Below the pieces are notes generated by a model. The model did not search any database, was not told the DNA's origin, and saw only the letters and a list, made by a program, of their open reading frames with translations. A DNA stretch of 64,000 nt from an uncultured Eubacteriales bacterium (lineage in GTDB: Bacteria > Bacillota > Clostridia > TANB77 > CAG-508): positions 3,039 to 67,038 of the forward strand of contig CASEEU010000083.1 in NCBI GenBank assembly GCA_949287075.1, in the 5' to 3' direction. Positions 31,202 through 46,763 of the stretch are shown piece by piece; the first letter of the stretch is position 1, and each line of letters starts with the position of its first letter. The translations under genes and the position numbers were made by a program.

Positions 31202-31346
31202 AATAAAGAGAAAAACAAAGAAAAAGAGAGAAAATAAATGAAATAGTAAAAAATAGAATTGCTAGAAACAAAGAAAATCTGTACTTGTTAAAATATGACA
31301 AAAATGAAATTTGTCATATTTCACATTTATACTGTATAATATATAT

Positions 31347-31987
31347 CGATGGTGCATTATTCTAGTCATACTCAAGTTTATGAGGGTGGGGCTAAAAATC
31401 CACTAAAGGGCATATCGTTGAAGTTCTTTGAATGTGCGCGAAACGCCAAGTTTGTGTGTGTTCAGGGAGTAAGAAATTCGGGTATTATATAATGGCATAT
31501 ATAAGATTCCCTGGTTTCGCGGAGGCTTAAATTTATGATAAATGTATCTTTTTATACATAATTTAAGAGTAACCTGTGATGCGTGCCAAGACACAAAAAG
31601 CACAGAGTAGCCTGTCTTGAGTGAATGTATTGGGATTAAATCATTAGTAAAGCATAGTTTTGGCCAAATTAGTTTTACTGTACTTATGAAATTTCATTTG
31701 CAAAAAAGACTAATAAACTTGTAAAGTATGTTAAGGAAAACTTCTAGAATGTTTGCTTCCATAGAAGCATAGAAGTCTTTGGATTAAGGTACAGATTTAA
31801 GTGGCAATCTGGTAGCTATAGTTTCTATAGATATTTCCCTTAAACGGAAACGGCAATAGCAGTAATGCTATGCGGGAAATAGAGAAATTCAACCAGACCT
31901 AAACTGTAAAATTTACTTAGACTTTTACCATCTCAAATAAAAAATATTAAGAGGAAATCTTGGGAAAAACTCAAAATTTCCTCTTTT
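31347..31987 (+). ncRNA. Large (~640 nt) structured non-coding RNA candidate, OLE-like by size and synteny (family unverified)
   Basis: Promoter: TTGTCA (31311-31316), 18 nt spacer, TGTATAAT (31333-31340). No credible ORF lies on the + strand. G+C is visibly higher than the surroundings. Nested stems are visible, e.g. ACTTCTA[..GCTTC-CATA-GAAGC..]TAGAAGT near 31740-31780, CTATAG-TTT-CTATAG near 31815, and TTTCCC..[GCAATAGCA-GTAA-TGCTATGC]..GGGAAA near 31835-31880. Terminator: AAGAGGAAAT...ATTTCCTCTTTT at 31949-31987. Confidence 0.55.
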
Positions 31988-43043: not shown

Positions 43044-43119
43044 GCGGGAATAGCTCAGTTGATAGAGCGCTGCCTTGCCAAGGCAGAGGTCGCGGGTTTG
43101 AGCCCCGTTTCCCGCTCCA
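43044..43119 (+). tRNA. tRNA-Gly (anticodon GCC)
   Basis: The cloverleaf was read by eye: acceptor GCGGGAA/TTCCCGC, D-arm GCTC..GAGC, anticodon stem CTGCC/GGCAG with loop TTGCCAA, T-arm GCGGG-TTTGAGC-CCCGT, and an encoded CCA. Confidence 0.9.
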
Positions 43120-43202: not shown

Positions 43203-43277
43203 GGCGACATAGCCAAGTGGCTAAGGCACGAGTCTGCAAAACTCTGATCCCCGGTTCGAATCCGGGTGTCGCCTCCA
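43203..43277 (+). tRNA. tRNA-Cys (anticodon GCA)
   Basis: Acceptor GGCGACA/TGTCGCC, anticodon loop CTGCAAA, T-arm CCGGG-TTCGAAT-CCGGG with GTTCGAATC, and an encoded CCA. Confidence 0.9.
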
Positions 43278-43468
43278 ATTTGAATAAGTTTAGACGGTTA
43301 TTACTTAAAATGATACGATATATCAATATAACCGAAATTACAGAAAATACTGCCTTTTAAAACAGTATTTTATTTTTATATTTAACACAGAATATCATAG
43401 ATTATTGTAGAAAACTATAAGTATTGCAATAAAATTGCAGTAATTTTTTATAGTGTGAGGGAAAAATT

Positions 43469-44074
43469 ATGGAAGAAAAATATAATACTTTAGAATATTA
43501 TAACAAAAATGCAAAAATATATTGTGAACAAACATTAGAAGGAAATATGCAAGAGAATTATGATAAATTTTTACAGCATTTACCTTCTAATGCATATATT
43601 TTAGATTTCGGATGCGGTTCAGGAAGAGATAGTAAATATTTTATAGAAAATGGATATAAAGTTAAAGCAATAGATGGTTCAATTGAAATATGTAAGTTAG
43701 CTAGCAAATATATCAATCAAGAAGTGACATGTATGAATTTTAAAGAATTGGAAGATATAAATACATATGATGGTATATGGGCATGTTCTTCAATATTGCA
43801 TATTGAAAAAGAAAAACTGCCAAATATTCTTAATAAAATGATAAATGCTTTAAAAGTTAATGGAATAATTTATACTTCTTTTAAAATAGGAGAAGGTTTT
43901 GAGATAAAAGAAGAAAAATATTATAATTATTTAACTAAAAATGAGATGATACAAATACTAAAAGATTTAAATAGAAATGTTAAACTTATTGATTATTTTG
44001 AAACACTTCCAAGTACAAAAAGAATTGCAAAAAATACAATTTGGGGTAATTTCATTATAAAAAAGTTTGAGTAA
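43469..44074 (+). CDS. Class I SAM-dependent methyltransferase
   Basis: 201 aa. SAM-binding motif LDFGCGSGRDS. Confidence 0.75.
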   Translation: MEEKYNTLEYYNKNAKIYCEQTLEGNMQENYDKFLQHLPSNAYILDFGCGSGRDSKYFIENGYKVKAIDGSIEICKLASKYINQEVTCMNFKELEDINTYDGIWACSSILHIEKEKLPNILNKMINALKVNGIIYTSFKIGEGFEIKEEKYYNYLTKNEMIQILKDLNRNVKLIDYFETLPSTKRIAKNTIWGNFIIKKFE

Positions 44075-44118
44075 AATAAATATTTGACAAATACAAAAAA
44101 AGATGTTATTATATATTT

Positions 44119-44198
44119 AGCTTAAGCAAATGTGTCATAGGTCGTATGAGACATATATGTAACTGGTGTGTGTAACTGCAATTACACATACTTTTTTT
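44119..44198 (+). ncRNA. Candidate small antisense-type RNA A (cognate to small ORF A)
   Basis: Promoter: TTGACA (44084-44089), 17 nt spacer, TATTAT (44107-44112). Terminator: GTGTGTGTAA-CTGCA-ATTACACATAC plus TTTTTTT (44166-44198). Segment 44140-44163 (GGTCGTATGAGACATATATGTAAC) resembles the + strand at 44381-44406, so the RNA is complementary to the start region of the minus-strand ORF A mRNA. Confidence 0.5.
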
Positions 44199-44294
44199 AT
44201 GCTAAAATAGAAAACTAATCCGACTTTATTGTCTATAACAATAAAAAGCAGAAACAAACTGCAATTTGTTCCCACTTTCGACTATGTATGCAAC

Positions 44295-44396
44295 CTAGTC
44301 TTTGTCATTCATCTTTTCATCTCTTAATTGGTAGTTCTTGTCTTTTTCAGTAAGTAACATTTCAATTAATCGTAAGATTAAGTCGTATGATGACAT
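44295..44396 (-). CDS. Small ORF A, 33 aa (MSSYDLILRLIEMLLTEKDKNYQLRDEKMNDKD)
   Basis: Not in the ORF track. RBS GGAAAGGGGG lies 9 nt before the ATG. Minus-strand promoter: TTGTTT (44485-44490 on +), 17 nt spacer, TGTAATAT (44462-44469 on +). A hairpin lies downstream near 44247-44275. Confidence 0.5.
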   Translation of the reverse strand: MSSYDLILRLIEMLLTEKDKNYQLRDEKMNDKD

Positions 44397-44831
44397 AGTA
44401 TGTAACCCCCTTTCCACCCTTGAGTAAGGATTGCCTTTCTGTCAATGAAAAGGTTGCTAATATATTACAATATTTTACAATAAAAAACAAGCGAACATGG
44501 TAAAAATTTACAATTAATTTATAGTATAAATAAAATATAAATTATGTAGTTGCAGTAAAATTGCAGTAATATTTTGGAGGTATAATTATGGAATATATAA
44601 AAAACTAATTATACATACATTGAATCACATATAGTTATTATTAAAAATATTACTTTTTAAGTTTTTTATTATTCAAATGATGTTTATATTTCTAACTTAA
44701 CTATAAAGATTAAATTATCAGAGATAGAAAATTATTTGAAAAATATATAATTTGTAAAGTCTTCAAACTATTGAATTTAAGCCAATATTTTGATATAATG
44801 AAAACTATAAAAATAGAAAGAAGGTAGAAAT

Positions 44832-45485
44832 TTGAATATAATTAAAACTTATTCAATCAATAGAAATAATATACATATAGATAATGAATTGAAAACTAAT
44901 GAAGCAATCATAGTGTGTAATCATTATATAATGGAACAATTATCAAGGAACGGTGTAACTTTTGACGAGATGTATCCTGGAGTATTTATAGTTACTTCTT
45001 TAAATGGTAATTCAACAATGCAAGATATAGAAAAAATTAATAGATTAATTAGACTATATGATCCAGATTTAATAGACGAAAGTAATTTAGTAGCTCAAAT
45101 GTCTCAAGAAAAAATGGATGCTTTTTTTCAAAATCATTTTTGGTCTGACGGAGAAAAGAAAAAAATGCATATAAAAAGCGTTGAATATAGAGGAAAACGA
45201 TTTGATATTGATCCAGGTTCTTTAATCGTTACATATCAAGAAGGTAAAAGAGGTAAAGAATTTACTTTCAATTTTAGAGATGGTAGTACAGATTTGCTTG
45301 GATATACAGAAGATTGGGTACGAATAGAAGATGTATGGGATAAGTATTTATTTGATGAGACTGTAAAACCATGGCTAGAAAAAAATAAATTACGTTTGTC
45401 TGTAAAAGTTCATAATAGTTCGACTGTGTTAAATAATCAAAATAAGGCAAGAGTTACTAGAACAATTGAACTAGAAGAAAAATAG
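44832..45485 (+). CDS. Hypothetical protein (orphan cargo between the two sRNA/small-ORF modules)
   Basis: 217 aa with a TTG start behind GAAGGTAG. Its own promoter is TTGAAT, 17 nt spacer, TGATATAAT (about 44772-44800). No motif was recognised. Confidence 0.6.
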   Translation: MNIIKTYSINRNNIHIDNELKTNEAIIVCNHYIMEQLSRNGVTFDEMYPGVFIVTSLNGNSTMQDIEKINRLIRLYDPDLIDESNLVAQMSQEKMDAFFQNHFWSDGEKKKMHIKSVEYRGKRFDIDPGSLIVTYQEGKRGKEFTFNFRDGSTDLLGYTEDWVRIEDVWDKYLFDETVKPWLEKNKLRLSVKVHNSSTVLNNQNKARVTRTIELEEK

Positions 45486-45667
45486 CAATATCTATTGATA
45501 ATATAAGTTAAATTTATATAATTTTTTATTGAAAGTATCTATAATATTTTTTGGTTGAGACATTTTCTCAAGTGATTTATTAAGACATTATCACAAATGA
45601 ATCAGATTATAAAAAATTTTGAGTAAAAATATTTGACAAAAATATATATAAATGCTATTATATAATT

Positions 45668-45746
45668 ACATTAAATAAAACATTCAAAGTTCTGCGAATG
45701 TCATTTGTGCTTGTATGTGTATCACAACTACACATACTTTTTTTTT
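45668..45746 (+). ncRNA. Candidate small antisense-type RNA B (cognate to small ORF B)
   Basis: Promoter: TTGACA (45633-45638), 17 nt spacer, TATTAT (45656-45661). Terminator: GTATGTGTA-TCACAAC-TACACATAC plus T9 (45713-45746). Segment 45688-45712 (AGTTCTGCGAATGTCATTTGTGCTT) matches the + strand at 45903-45927 at 22 of 25 positions, so the RNA is complementary to the ORF B start region. Confidence 0.5.
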
Positions 45747-45793
45747 ATAAAAACAGGATAGACCACAACATTCTATCCTGTTTAACAATACTA

Positions 45794-45919
45794 TTATGTA
45801 TTATCTACTTTAATCTTTTTATCTTCTGTATTTGCTTTCGTAGATTTTAATGTTTCAATTTCTTCCTTTTGTTTTAATAATTTATCTACTAGTTGCAAAA
45901 TTAGTTCTGCGTTTGTCAT
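45794..45919 (-). CDS. Small ORF B, 41 aa (MTNAELILQLVDKLLKQKEEIETLKSTKANTEDKKIKVDNT)
   Basis: Not in the ORF track. RBS GGAAAGGGGG lies 8 nt before the ATG. The leader/promoter region (45930-46050) is near-identical to that of ORF A. Terminator hairpin AACAGGATAG...CTATCCTGTT lies at 45752-45782. Confidence 0.5.
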   Translation of the reverse strand: MTNAELILQLVDKLLKQKEEIETLKSTKANTEDKKIKVDNT

Positions 45920-46043
45920 ATGTGCTTCCCCCTTTCCGTTCCTAGGTAAAGAACTGCCTTTTGACAAGAAAGGTTGCTAACATATTACAAGATTTTACAA
46001 TAAAAAACAAGCGAACATAGTAAAAATTTACAATTAATTTTTA

Positions 46044-46763
46044 CTATAAATAGATATATTTTGTTTTGAAAAGTTTTATGAAAAGTTCTTGTAATCTAAT
46101 TGCTTGTTCTTTATCTAATTTCTCATTCGTAAGTTCATTATTAGAAATGATTCTAATTCCAACACAAGGAATTTGAAATTGATTACATACACAATATGTT
46201 CCTATACTTTCCATATCTTCAGAAAGATGATGAAATTGATTTTGTAACCACACAATTCTGTCATATTCTCGATTAAATACATCTCCACTTCCTAATGTTC
46301 CCGTATAAATTGCATTTTCATGATTTGTTTCAAAGAAATCTTTAAAAAGCTTTACTAATTTTTCATCTCCATTTTGTATTTCTTTTCCTCTTTTATTAGG
46401 CTCCCATTCAAAAGGATTAGAAGAATGTCCTTCTTCTTTTGTCGGCATTGAAAAAGCATTAATATTGCAACATTTTTCACCAATAATAATATCACCAATA
46501 TGAATATTTGATTTATGAGCTCCTGCGATTCCTTGGTTAATTACAAAATCTGGGTGAAAAGTCATAATGCCAATAGTGGTAGCAGTAGTGGCATTCACAA
46601 CACCTACTAATGTTTTGGAAATAATAATTTTTGATGTATGAATGTAACCTGTGTAAAATTCATATCCTGCTATTGTATGCTTTTCCTTTTTTTCTAGATG
46701 ATTAATGAAATATTCAACTTCAATATCCATTGCTCCTTGAATTAAAATCGTTTTATTTTTCAT
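46044..46763 (-). CDS. PNP_UDP_1-family nucleosidase (5'-methylthioadenosine/S-adenosylhomocysteine nucleosidase-like)
   Basis: 239 aa. ILIQGAMDIEVEYF at the N-terminus, NQGIAGA, and a SEDMES-type C-terminal motif are typical of MtnN/Pfs-like enzymes. Confidence 0.7.
   Translation of the reverse strand: MKNKTILIQGAMDIEVEYFINHLEKKEKHTIAGYEFYTGYIHTSKIIISKTLVGVVNATTATTIGIMTFHPDFVINQGIAGAHKSNIHIGDIIIGEKCCNINAFSMPTKEEGHSSNPFEWEPNKRGKEIQNGDEKLVKLFKDFFETNHENAIYTGTLGSGDVFNREYDRIVWLQNQFHHLSEDMESIGTYCVCNQFQIPCVGIRIISNNELTNEKLDKEQAIRLQELFIKLFKTKYIYL

What the first reader, a model, noticed from the sequence alone, without database searches (positions are those of the whole stretch)
45633..46050. Module B: second, diverged copy of the sRNA/small-ORF module with co-varying complementarity
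Seen in sequence:
- The layout is the same as module A: TTGACA, 17 nt spacer, TATTAT promoter; ~80 nt RNA; terminator GTATGTGTA-TCACAAC-TACACATAC plus T9.
- The convergent 41-codon ORF is MTNAELILQLVDKLLKQKEEIETLKSTKANTEDKKIKVDNT, behind GGAAAGGGGG.
- The ORF and the sRNA body differ from module A, yet the sRNA again carries a copy of its own partner's start region. AGTTCTGCGAATGTCATTTGTGCTT (45688-45712) matches AGTTCTGCGTTTGTCATATGTGCTT (45903-45927) at 22 of 25 positions.
- By contrast, the minus-strand promoter/leader region is almost identical between the modules over about 75 nt (44451-44525 versus 45976-46050). It contains three ATTGTAA(A/T) repeats and a CGAACAT element.
- The peptides share the pattern x-x-x-(D/E)-L-I-L-x-L-(I/V)-(E/D)-x-L-L followed by a charged tail.

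Inference:
- The antisense segment co-varies with its target while the promoter stays conserved. This argues that the RNA-RNA pairing is under selection and that each pair is cognate.
- It also argues that both modules answer to the same transcription factor.
Basis: seen in the sequence. Interest (0 to 1): 0.75.

Follow-up and report, generated by a model that had tools for sequence, protein, structure and literature searches.

The report
Antisense RNA guarding a small-protein gene
Module B is a real two-gene unit in which a small RNA is predicted to block translation of a neighbouring 41-amino-acid protein; its wiring matches known RNA-controlled toxin genes, but the protein belongs to an unnamed family that lacks the usual membrane segment.

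Summary
Module B has a near-consensus sRNA promoter (45633-45661), a ~79-nt sRNA ending in a strong terminator, and a convergent 41-codon ORF (45919..45794) behind GGAAAGGGGG. A 25-nt DNA direct repeat (45688-45712 / 45903-45927) makes the sRNA complementary to positions -8..+17 of the ORF's start region.

- **Specificity.** Cognate duplexes are -33 kcal/mol (B) and -36 (A); non-cognate ones are -14 and -17. Shuffles give z of about -6 to -7.
- **Co-variation.** In eight diverged lineages, 150 of 160 helix cells pair. The cognate assignment is the single best of 40,320.
- **Coding.** The ORF is under purifying selection (pN 0.05 against pS 0.83). It belongs to an unannotated family of at least 150 clusters of 29-41-aa helical peptides.
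- **Closest known system.** The architecture matches the Enterococcus par/Fst-RNA II type I toxin-antitoxin locus: convergent promoters and direct repeats over the start region. Module B differs in having no shared terminator, and its peptide has no transmembrane segment or Fst signature.
- **Shared promoter.** The same promoter core also drives three classes of hydrophobic, toxin-like peptides in related genomes.

A common transcription factor is plausible but untested, and toxicity is unproven. I rate it a new variant of a known kind.

The parts
45633..45661 (+). sRNA-B promoter: TTGACA, 17-nt spacer, TATTAT, with TG of an extended -10
   Evidence: 11 of 12 matches. The same TTGAC(A/T)-17-TA...AT with TG is kept in nine diverged modules while the spacer sequence varies.
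45668..45746 (+). Predicted sRNA-B transcript, about 79 nt: AU-rich 5' part, antisense segment, terminator
   Evidence: Start inferred from the promoter, end from the terminator. Fold: terminator hairpin plus a weakly structured 5' part, -14.7 kcal/mol.
45688..45712 (+). Antisense segment of sRNA-B; one copy of the DNA direct repeat
   Evidence: (D6). The RNAduplex places sRNA nt 20-45 on mRNA -8..+18 at -33.0 kcal/mol.
45713..45746 (+). sRNA-B intrinsic terminator: 9-bp stem GTATGTGTA/TACACATAC, 7-nt loop, T9
   Evidence: The stem sequence is conserved in all A/B-type lineages.
45753..45781 (-). Separate terminator hairpin of the ORF mRNA (ACAGGATAGA / TCTATCCTGT, 9-nt loop), followed by a U-run
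   Evidence: Read from the sequence and present in the mRNA fold. It is not shared with the sRNA.
45794..45919 (-). 41-codon ORF plus stop: MTNAELILQLVDKLLKQKEEIETLKSTKANTEDKKIKVDNT
   Evidence: Relatives. Purifying selection. Predicted single helix, residues 3-39, pLDDT 96-98 over residues 1-20.
45903..45927 (-). Target site on the mRNA, -8..+17 around the AUG; second copy of the direct repeat
   Evidence: The duplex is 7 bp, a 1x1 loop, 6 bp over AUGACA, a 2x2 loop, then 9 bp.
45928..45937 (-). Shine-Dalgarno sequence GGAAAGGGGG
   Evidence: Conserved with at most single-base changes (GGAAAGGGGG, GGGAAGGGGG or GGAAGGGGG) in all 11 aligned leaders.
45938..45978 (-). 5' UTR with a CCUUUC anti-SD element (45973..45968) and small hairpins
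   Evidence: In the minimum-free-energy fold, CCUUUCU pairs with the SD. CCUUU/GAAAG pairing is kept in the leader alignment, but without two-sided changes.
45982..46010 (-). Predicted mRNA promoter: -35 TTGTTT (46010..46005), 17-nt spacer, -10 TAATAT (45987..45982)
   Evidence: Read from the sequence. The same register fits the other cassette types. Not experimentally mapped.
46008..46052 (-). Conserved element upstream of the -35: TTAATTGTAAATTTTTACTATGTTCGCTTG; candidate regulator site
   Evidence: (D1).
44078..44532 (.). Module A, the paralogue. sRNA promoter 44084-44112, terminator 44165-44192, 33-codon ORF 44396..44295, shared promoter block 44449-44532

Best explanation
Module B is a self-contained locus of the type I toxin-antitoxin kind, built like the Enterococcus par (Fst/RNA II) system.

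- **The sRNA.** A near-consensus, probably constitutive promoter makes a ~79-nt sRNA. Because a 25-nt stretch of DNA is repeated in direct orientation and the two genes are transcribed convergently, the sRNA is complementary to positions -8 to +17 of the mRNA of the neighbouring 41-codon ORF.
- **The proposed action.** The duplex covers the start codon and sits just 3' of the Shine-Dalgarno sequence. Its three helices are separated by two conserved internal loops. It should block ribosome binding and hold the mRNA translationally silent. A CCUUUC element in the 5' UTR may additionally mask the Shine-Dalgarno sequence.
- **The mRNA promoter.** It is weaker than the sRNA promoter. Its upstream core is shared with module A and with several cassettes that encode hydrophobic toxin-like peptides, so the whole set is probably switched on together.
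- **The product.** It is a conserved helical peptide with a hydrophobic, charge-interrupted N-terminal half and a variable charged tail.

Shown here: the anatomy, the specificity and co-variation of the pairing, selection on the peptide, and family membership.

Inferred: that both RNAs are made, that pairing blocks translation, that the peptide is harmful when made, and that a common regulator exists.
For: 1. **Promoter and terminator are real.** The sRNA promoter and terminator are present. They are conserved in nine diverged modules although spacers and loops differ.
2. **Pairing is specific.** Cognate duplexes are A -36.1, B -33.0 and E -35.7 kcal/mol. Non-cognate pairs give -11 to -20. Shuffles give z = -6.2 to -6.9.
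3. **Pairing co-varies.**
   - Diverged relatives were fetched from metagenome contigs L046, L048, L170, L172, L174 and L176.
   - 150 of 160 helix cells pair, and the cognate assignment is the unique best of 40,320.
   - Across lineage pairs there are 159 two-sided changes that keep a pair, against 13 one-sided changes that break one.
   - Columns -6, -5, +9, +10, +12 and +15 each show three Watson-Crick pair types.
4. **Internal loops recur.** Loops at -2/-1 and +6..+8 appear in all lineages; only 9 of 24 cells pair at +6..+8. This argues against simple homogenisation of the repeats.
5. **The ORF is translated and selected.** Module A against L172, codons 7-24: pS 0.83, pN 0.05. Module B against L046: pS 0.28, pN 0.02. 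A profile search finds 150 clusters at E <= 0.001, all short proteins with the motif at their N-terminus.
6. **The module is autonomous.** It lies in unrelated contexts in different lineages: rplI-dnaB, after pyk, after tatD.
7. **Toxin-like siblings share the promoter.** The same core drives hydrophobic peptides:
   - C: MIEAVLLEIIYLLLFGLVVETIIVFALIILVIILSK
   - D: MVEQAMLMIIYLLFYGFVGMTIIAFALIIAIVVILSK
   - E: MKKYIKLIALIIILLILKELDD
   - Each has its own convergent sRNA.
8. **The design is established.** Convergent promoters, direct repeats over the initiation region, an SD-masking 5' structure, and specificity set by repeat sequence are all described for par (PMC7472228).
Against: - There are no expression data, so neither RNA has been observed.
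- The peptide has no transmembrane segment. The best 19-residue Kyte-Doolittle mean is 0.14 (B) and 0.31 (A), against 3.1 for C and D and 2.2 for Fst.
- By my count, 9 of the best 15 residues are hydrophobic. Fozo et al. used 10 or more as their filter. Almost all known type I toxins have such a segment (PMC4147584), so toxicity is uncertain.
- There are no hits in Pfam, NCBIfam, PADLOC, PHROGs, PDB or Rfam.
- Among closely related genomes, the few changes in the pairing region are one-sided. I read three as keeping a G-U pair and four as breaking a pair.
- The co-variation could come partly from gene conversion between the two repeat copies. Recombination between them does occur (L015 deletion).
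- SD masking has no two-sided co-variation to support it, because both partners are invariant.
Confidence: 0.72

Rival explanations
1. The RNA mechanism is the same, but this is not a toxin-antitoxin pair. The peptide is a harmless small regulatory or adaptor protein, for example a coiled-coil binder of a larger protein. Its synthesis is kept off by the sRNA until the shared promoter is induced.
For: - The peptide is hydrophilic overall (GRAVY -0.75) and has no transmembrane segment.
- It is predicted as one long helix.
- The hydrophobic residues I7, L10, L14, I21 and L24 fall in a heptad-like spacing (read from the sequence).
- The N-terminal 18 residues are strongly conserved across 150 clusters, which suggests a specific partner.
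- In some lineages it sits at a fixed single-copy chromosomal position.
Against: - It shares its promoter, leader logic and sRNA design with cassettes encoding clearly toxin-like hydrophobic peptides (C, D, E) in the same arrays.
- It is multiplied in tandem, and copies are frequently deleted or frameshifted (L015, L021, L039). Both are typical of type I toxin loci (PMC2887945).
- No conserved partner gene lies nearby.
Confidence: 0.22
2. The 25-nt repeat and the promoter-like and terminator-like sites are leftovers of local duplication in AT-rich DNA and have no RNA function.
For: - The region does carry duplication scars. The last 23 nt of the methyltransferase gene are repeated at 45606-45628 (D7).
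- Consensus promoter matches are common in AT-rich DNA: 27 found against 19.7 expected.
Against: - Eight lineages with different sequences all keep the complementarity, the TTGACA-17-TATTAT promoter and the terminator.
- The cognate assignment is the unique optimum of 40,320.
- Terminator-like sites number 3 against 0.2 expected.
- The ORF is under purifying selection.
Confidence: 0.02
3. The sRNA acts mainly by triggering degradation of the mRNA through double-strand-specific cleavage, or it has other main targets. Occlusion of the start region would then be secondary.
For: - Several Bacillus type I antitoxins work mainly through mRNA decay (table in PMC4147584).
- The sibling cassettes C and D show no significant pairing at the start region (z about -1.5). 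Their stop codon and sRNA flank a single hairpin with an A-run on one side and a T-run on the other (read from the sequence). That would give a 3' overlap of the degradation-type layout.
Against: - In A, B and E the duplex sits exactly on the start codon.
- The duplex is interrupted by conserved internal loops. These would disfavour cleavage of a long perfect duplex.
- The window holds no other site matching the antisense segment.
Confidence: 0.04

Closest known systems
par locus of Enterococcus faecalis plasmid pAD1 and its relatives (Fst toxin mRNA RNA I / antitoxin RNA II; Fst/Ldr family)
   Same: - Convergent promoters.
- The two RNAs read in opposite directions across DNA direct repeats, which makes the sRNA complementary to the toxin's translation initiation region.
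- The pairing is split into blocks (DRa/DRb there; three helices here).
- A 5' structure can mask the Shine-Dalgarno sequence.
- Specificity between paralogous loci is set by the repeat sequence.
- The peptide is about 33 aa with a charged C-terminal tail.

Source for the par features: PMC7472228.
   Different: - There is no shared bidirectional terminator. Modules A and B have two separate, adjacent hairpins, so the terminator-loop kissing step cannot occur.
- The peptide lacks the transmembrane helix, the PXXXG motif and the conserved Trp.
- There is no Pfam or Rfam match.
E. coli type I systems with a separately encoded antitoxin (TisB/IstR-1, ShoB/OhsC, Zor/Orz, DinQ/AgrB)
   Same: The antitoxin gene lies next to the toxin gene rather than overlapping it. 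It pairs through a short dedicated stretch of complementarity. Some of these loci are duplicated in tandem (PMC4147584; PMC2887945).
   Different: - Those pairs are divergent, and the sRNA binds within the long 5' UTR, not over the start codon.
- Here the genes are convergent and the duplex covers -8..+17.
- Those toxins are hydrophobic membrane peptides.
Type I toxins without a membrane segment (SymE, RalR)
   Same: They set a precedent: a type I toxin need not be a membrane peptide (PMC4147584).
   Different: SymE (113 aa) and RalR are nucleases much larger than 33-41 aa. They show no sequence relationship to this peptide.
Staphylococcus aureus SprA1/SprA1AS (PepA1)
   Same: From my own recollection, not tested here: the antitoxin represses translation in trans through a region that pairs with the start region of the toxin mRNA. 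The review read lists PepA1 as an Fst homologue.
   Different: - As I recall, that antitoxin overlaps the toxin gene's 3' end.
- PepA1 is a membrane peptide.

Membership tests
Type I toxin-antitoxin system (general definition) | Short ORF (under about 60 aa) with an adjacent or overlapping gene for an antisense sRNA | tested here: met
   41-codon ORF with a convergent sRNA gene that has its own promoter and terminator.
Type I toxin-antitoxin system (general definition) | [quoted passage not shown] | tested here: met
   Predicted duplex of 22 bp at -33 kcal/mol, z = -6.9, cognate-specific. Co-variation across eight lineages. This is computational only.
Type I toxin-antitoxin system (general definition) | The toxin is a small hydrophobic peptide with a predicted transmembrane segment | tested here: not met
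   Best 19-residue Kyte-Doolittle mean is 0.14 (B) and 0.31 (A); GRAVY is -0.75 and -0.92. By my count 9 of the best 15 residues are hydrophobic, against the filter of 10 or more in PMC2887945.
Type I toxin-antitoxin system (general definition) | Overproduction of the peptide is toxic, and the sRNA prevents this | not testable with these tools
   Needs expression experiments.
par / Fst-RNA II family | Convergent promoters transcribing across DNA direct repeats that cover the translation initiation region | tested here: met
   (D6). The feature definition is from PMC7472228.
par / Fst-RNA II family | Bidirectional intrinsic terminator shared by both RNAs, giving a second complementary region | tested here: not met
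   There are two distinct hairpins: 45713-45737 for the sRNA and 45753-45781 for the mRNA.
par / Fst-RNA II family | Intramolecular structure in the toxin mRNA that sequesters the Shine-Dalgarno sequence | tested here: inconclusive
   The minimum-free-energy fold pairs CCUUUCU with the SD. CCUUU/GAAAG pairing is kept in the leader alignment, but none of the predicted pairs shows a two-sided change.
par / Fst-RNA II family | Fst/Ldr toxin signature: transmembrane helix, P/D/S/TXXXG(C) motif, conserved Trp, charged C-terminus | tested here: not met
   Only the charged tail is present. No Pfam family at E <= 1 and no NCBIfam family.
par / Fst-RNA II family | Sequence/structure match of the sRNA to a curated antitoxin RNA family | tested here: not met
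   Rfam with permissive filters over 43900-46200 gives only chance-level snoRNA and miRNA hits.
Divergent trans-encoded type I systems (TisB/IstR-1, Zor/Orz, ShoB/OhsC) | Divergent gene pair; the sRNA binds within the 5' UTR and does not cover the initiation site | tested here: not met
   The genes are convergent and the duplex spans -8..+17. The definition is from PMC4147584.

The most novel reading that the evidence does not exclude
The A/B peptides (consensus M-T/S-x-x-D/E-L-I-L-R-L-V/I-E-M-L-L-x-E-K...) may define a new class of type I 'toxin' that is not a membrane-spanning peptide. They could be a soluble or surface-active amphipathic helix with a protein or interfacial target, or a non-toxic regulator that has taken over par-like RNA control.

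In this reading, one still unknown transcription factor would co-induce them together with several unrelated membrane toxins, through a promoter cassette shared by at least five cassette types. The cassettes would be assembled into arrays next to tRNA-Cys by small integrating units that leave tRNA-Cys 3'-end copies behind.
Probability: 0.3. Interest if true: 0.7.

Novelty: new variant of a known kind. Interest (0 to 1): 0.55.

Why it matters
[quoted passage not shown] This family would be missed by such filters and carries no annotation. It has at least 150 sequence clusters, so far seen only in metagenomes and uncultured Clostridia genomes.
- **Natural evidence for the specificity code.** The eight-lineage set is an unusually clean natural compensatory-mutation series. 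It shows that the direct-repeat pairing is the specificity code of each module. It also shows that two internal loops flanking the start-codon helix are themselves conserved.
- **A testable regulon.** One promoter core is shared by five unrelated small-peptide cassettes. That gives a concrete route to a regulator controlling a whole toxin set in gut Clostridia.
- **A possible broadening of the class.** If the peptide proves toxic without a membrane segment, it widens what a type I toxin can be.

Tried and rejected
- **Library searches found nothing.** Rfam gave no match at gathering or permissive thresholds. Pfam, NCBIfam, PADLOC, PHROGs and PDB gave no credible match for any of the peptides. 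The one sub-threshold PHROG hit (E = 0.011, unknown function) was ignored.
- **No mobile-element link.** Phage and plasmid BLAST and a viral-contig scan found nothing. The module is not obviously carried by a phage or plasmid.
- **Wasted metagenome scan.** I used too loose a pattern (16 specified bases). Of the loci returned, the three I recognised as real modules were L093, L095 and L127.
- **LexA box rejected.** In the promoter only the half-site GTTCG/CGAAC is present, and the other half does not match. SigD, SigB, SigH and Spo0A consensus sequences also did not fit by eye. No regulator is assigned.
- **Within-type co-variation is too sparse.** The closely related genomes show too few changes to be informative. 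The test became informative only after fetching diverged relatives.
- **Cassettes C and D do not pair at the start region.** Their sRNAs show no significant complementarity to their start regions. They probably work through a 3' overlap at a shared terminator, so they were left out of the co-variation test.
- **ORF inside the sRNA dismissed.** The 50-codon ORF starting at 45698 runs through two terminators and has no Shine-Dalgarno sequence.
- **No literature match.** A text search for the peptide motifs returned nothing.
Full report
**1. What is in the sequence**

The plus strand carries TTGACA-17-TATTAT at 45633-45661, preceded by TG. A 9-bp GC-containing hairpin at 45713-45737 follows, then nine T. 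The scan of this region found three terminator-like sites against 0.2 expected, and two of the three belong to the sRNAs of modules A and B. These signals define an RNA of about 79 nt (45668-45746).

On the minus strand a 41-codon ORF runs from 45919 to 45794 behind GGAAAGGGGG. It has its own terminator hairpin at 45781..45753.

The 25-nt segment 45688-45712 recurs at 45903-45927 with 22 of 25 identities. These are the only two copies in the 64-kb window at up to 3 mismatches. The repeat is direct and the genes are convergent, so the sRNA is antisense to the ORF's start region.

Module A (44078-44532) has the same layout. A formal alignment of the two modules shows which parts are kept:
- an almost identical promoter and 5' leader block (84 nt at 94%);
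- the Shine-Dalgarno sequence;
- the sRNA terminator stem;
- the sRNA promoter.

Everything else has diverged.

**2. Is the complementarity specific and selected?**

The predicted duplex joins sRNA nt 20-45 to mRNA -8..+18. It consists of 7 bp, a 1x1 loop, 6 bp over AUGACA, a 2x2 loop and 9 bp, at -33.0 kcal/mol. Shuffled sRNA bodies give -13.4 +/- 2.8 (z = -6.9). Module A gives -36.1 (z = -6.2). The cross-pairs give -13.7 and -17.2, which is the shuffle level.

Among closely related genomes the pairing region barely varies, and the few changes are one-sided, so that set is uninformative. I therefore searched with a profile of the A and B peptides. I fetched the DNA of diverged relatives from loci L046, L048, L170, L172, L174 and L176. 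Every one has a convergent sRNA carrying a copy of its own start region.

Aligned on the AUG, the eight lineages give these results:
- 150 of 160 cells pair in the three helices (-8..-3, +1..+5, +9..+17).
- The mRNA base varies in 14 of those 20 columns.
- Columns -6, -5, +9, +10, +12 and +15 each show three different Watson-Crick pairs.
- Among all 40,320 ways of assigning sRNAs to mRNAs, the true one is the unique maximum (mean 112.6, sd 8.2).
- Lineage pairs show 159 two-sided changes that keep a pair, against 13 one-sided changes that break one.

Positions -2/-1 and +6..+8 are recurrently unpaired; only 9 of 24 cells pair at +6..+8. That is hard to reconcile with plain homogenisation of the repeats by gene conversion. 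It suggests that an interrupted duplex is itself selected.

**3. The RNA gene and the ORF are real**

All nine modules examined keep TTGAC(A/T), a 17-nt spacer ending in TGn, TA...AT, an antisense segment placed directly 5' of the terminator, and a T-run. All A/B-type modules also keep the stem GTATGTGTA/TACACATAC, with one variation in L048. Spacers and loops differ between modules.

The ORF is under purifying selection outside the pairing region:
- module A against L172, codons 7-24: pS 0.83, pN 0.05;
- module B against L046: pS 0.28, pN 0.02.

An exhaustive profile search finds 150 clusters at E <= 0.001. All are short proteins, with the motif at the N-terminus or after an upstream alternative start. 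The sequences form a continuum between the A and B types. None carries a name.

**4. The peptide**

AlphaFold predicts one helix, residues 3-39, with pLDDT 96-98 over the first 20 residues and a low-confidence tail. The conserved core is (D/E)LIL(R/Q)L(V/I)(E/D)(M/K)LL.

Hydrophobicity measures:

| Peptide | GRAVY | Best 19-residue Kyte-Doolittle mean |
|---|---|---|
| B | -0.75 | 0.14 |
| A | -0.92 | 0.31 |
| C and D (sibling cassettes) | 2.14 to 2.48 | 3.1 |
| Fst | 0.42 | 2.2 |

The peptide therefore has no transmembrane segment. By my count, 9 of the first 15 residues are hydrophobic, one short of the filter of 10 used by Fozo et al.. Charged residues at positions 5, 9, 12 and 16 fall on one helical face (read from the sequence). 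The peptide is thus an amphipathic helix with a broad hydrophobic face. It could act at a membrane surface or bind a protein.

**5. Family context**

The promoter core GTAAATTTTTACNATGTTCGCTTG occurs at 35 loci in about 30 species-level genomes of uncultured gut Clostridia. There it drives five cassette types: A, B, and three hydrophobic peptides C, D and E. Each cassette has its own convergent sRNA.

Type E uses the same start-region pairing (-35.7 kcal/mol, z = -6.3). Types C and D do not (z about -1.5). Their stop codon and sRNA flank a single hairpin with an A-run on one side and a T-run on the other (read from the sequence). This looks like a shared bidirectional terminator.

Parts of the core (TGTAAATTTTT, and TGTT(C/T)GCTTG next to the -35) persist in more distant lineages. 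This fits a common regulator, but none can be named. Exchange of cassettes behind a constant promoter would give the same picture.

**6. Comparison with known systems**

The design is that of the par locus of pAD1 and its relatives. The shared features are convergent promoters, DNA direct repeats (DRa/DRb) that make the antitoxin complementary to the initiation region, a 5' structure that masks the Shine-Dalgarno sequence, and specificity between paralogues set by the repeat sequences (PMC7472228).

Two defining features are not met. There is no shared bidirectional terminator, and the peptide lacks the Fst signature. No Pfam, NCBIfam or Rfam model matches.

The divergent E. coli systems bind the 5' UTR rather than the start codon (PMC4147584). 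Known type I toxins without a membrane segment (SymE, RalR) are much larger nucleases. I therefore file module B as working like par, but as a new variant rather than a member.

**7. Verdict**

The co-variation inference is strongly supported. The shared-regulator inference is plausible and untested. Toxicity is unproven; I give the rival that the peptide is a non-toxic regulator about 0.22. No phage, plasmid or viral match was found, and no paper in the library prints these peptide motifs.

Noticed in passing
window 31333-31947 (+): Full-length OLE (ornate large extremophilic) RNA: Rfam RF01071, 341.9 bits, E = 8.5e-97.
   Followed up: no
L003:4620-5000, L014, L018, L034, L037, L038, L045: The same promoter core drives three other cassette types encoding hydrophobic peptides. 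They are C (MIEAVLLEIIYLLLFGLVVETIIVFALIILVIILSK), D (MVEQAMLMIIYLLFYGFVGMTIIAFALIIAIVVILSK) and E (MKKYIKLIALIIILLILKELDD). Each has its own convergent sRNA. C and D appear to share a bidirectional terminator with their sRNA.
   Followed up: partly
L015 (minus-strand offset 7727); also L021 and L031: A natural deletion lies exactly between the two direct-repeat copies. It removes the ORF and both terminators and leaves GCACATATGACAAACGCAGAACTTTGAATG. Two further loci also look like deletion variants.
   Followed up: partly
window 43044-43119 and 43203-43277; upstream of the modules in L011, L013, L015, L016, L033, L035 and others: Modules cluster next to a tRNA-Gly/tRNA-Cys pair. In related loci, most modules are preceded by a conserved stretch of about 150 nt. 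Its far end copies the last ~17 nt of tRNA-Cys plus that gene's downstream flank (TGTCGCCTCCAATTTGAATAAGTTTAGA...). This looks like attachment-site scars of small integrating units.
   Followed up: partly
window 45606-45628, 44548-44609, 43418-43468: There are duplication scars of the methyltransferase gene. Its last 23 nt recur before sRNA-B (D7). Its 5' leader motif TTGCA(A/G)TAAAATTGCAGTAAT recurs at 44548-44571, followed by a strong Shine-Dalgarno sequence and a 6-codon remnant ORF, MEYIKN. Related loci carry truncated copies of the methyltransferase beside the modules.
   Followed up: partly
window 45486-45600 (+): A promoter-like site TTGATA-16-TATAAT lies at 45495-45522 (11 of 12 matches). 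It sits inside a ~110-nt element that also lies beside type B and type D modules in other loci (L011, L013, L033, L035, L045). No terminator was seen and its function is unknown.
   Followed up: no
window 44832-45485 (+): The 217-aa ORF between the two modules has no match in Pfam, NCBIfam, PADLOC or PHROGs. The exact protein was found on only two contigs.
   Followed up: no
window 45713-45737 and 44165-44192; L046, L170-L176: The sRNA terminator stem sequence GTATGTGTA/TACACATAC is conserved across A/B-type lineages whose loops and flanks differ. That is more conservation than a terminator alone needs, so it may be a protein-binding or RNA-contact site.
   Followed up: no
L002:1-2700: A module B identical to the window's lies on a 3-kb contig whose neighbouring called genes carry DUF4493/PCMD domains, a different context from the window. 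This could be a different insertion site or an assembly chimera.
   Followed up: no
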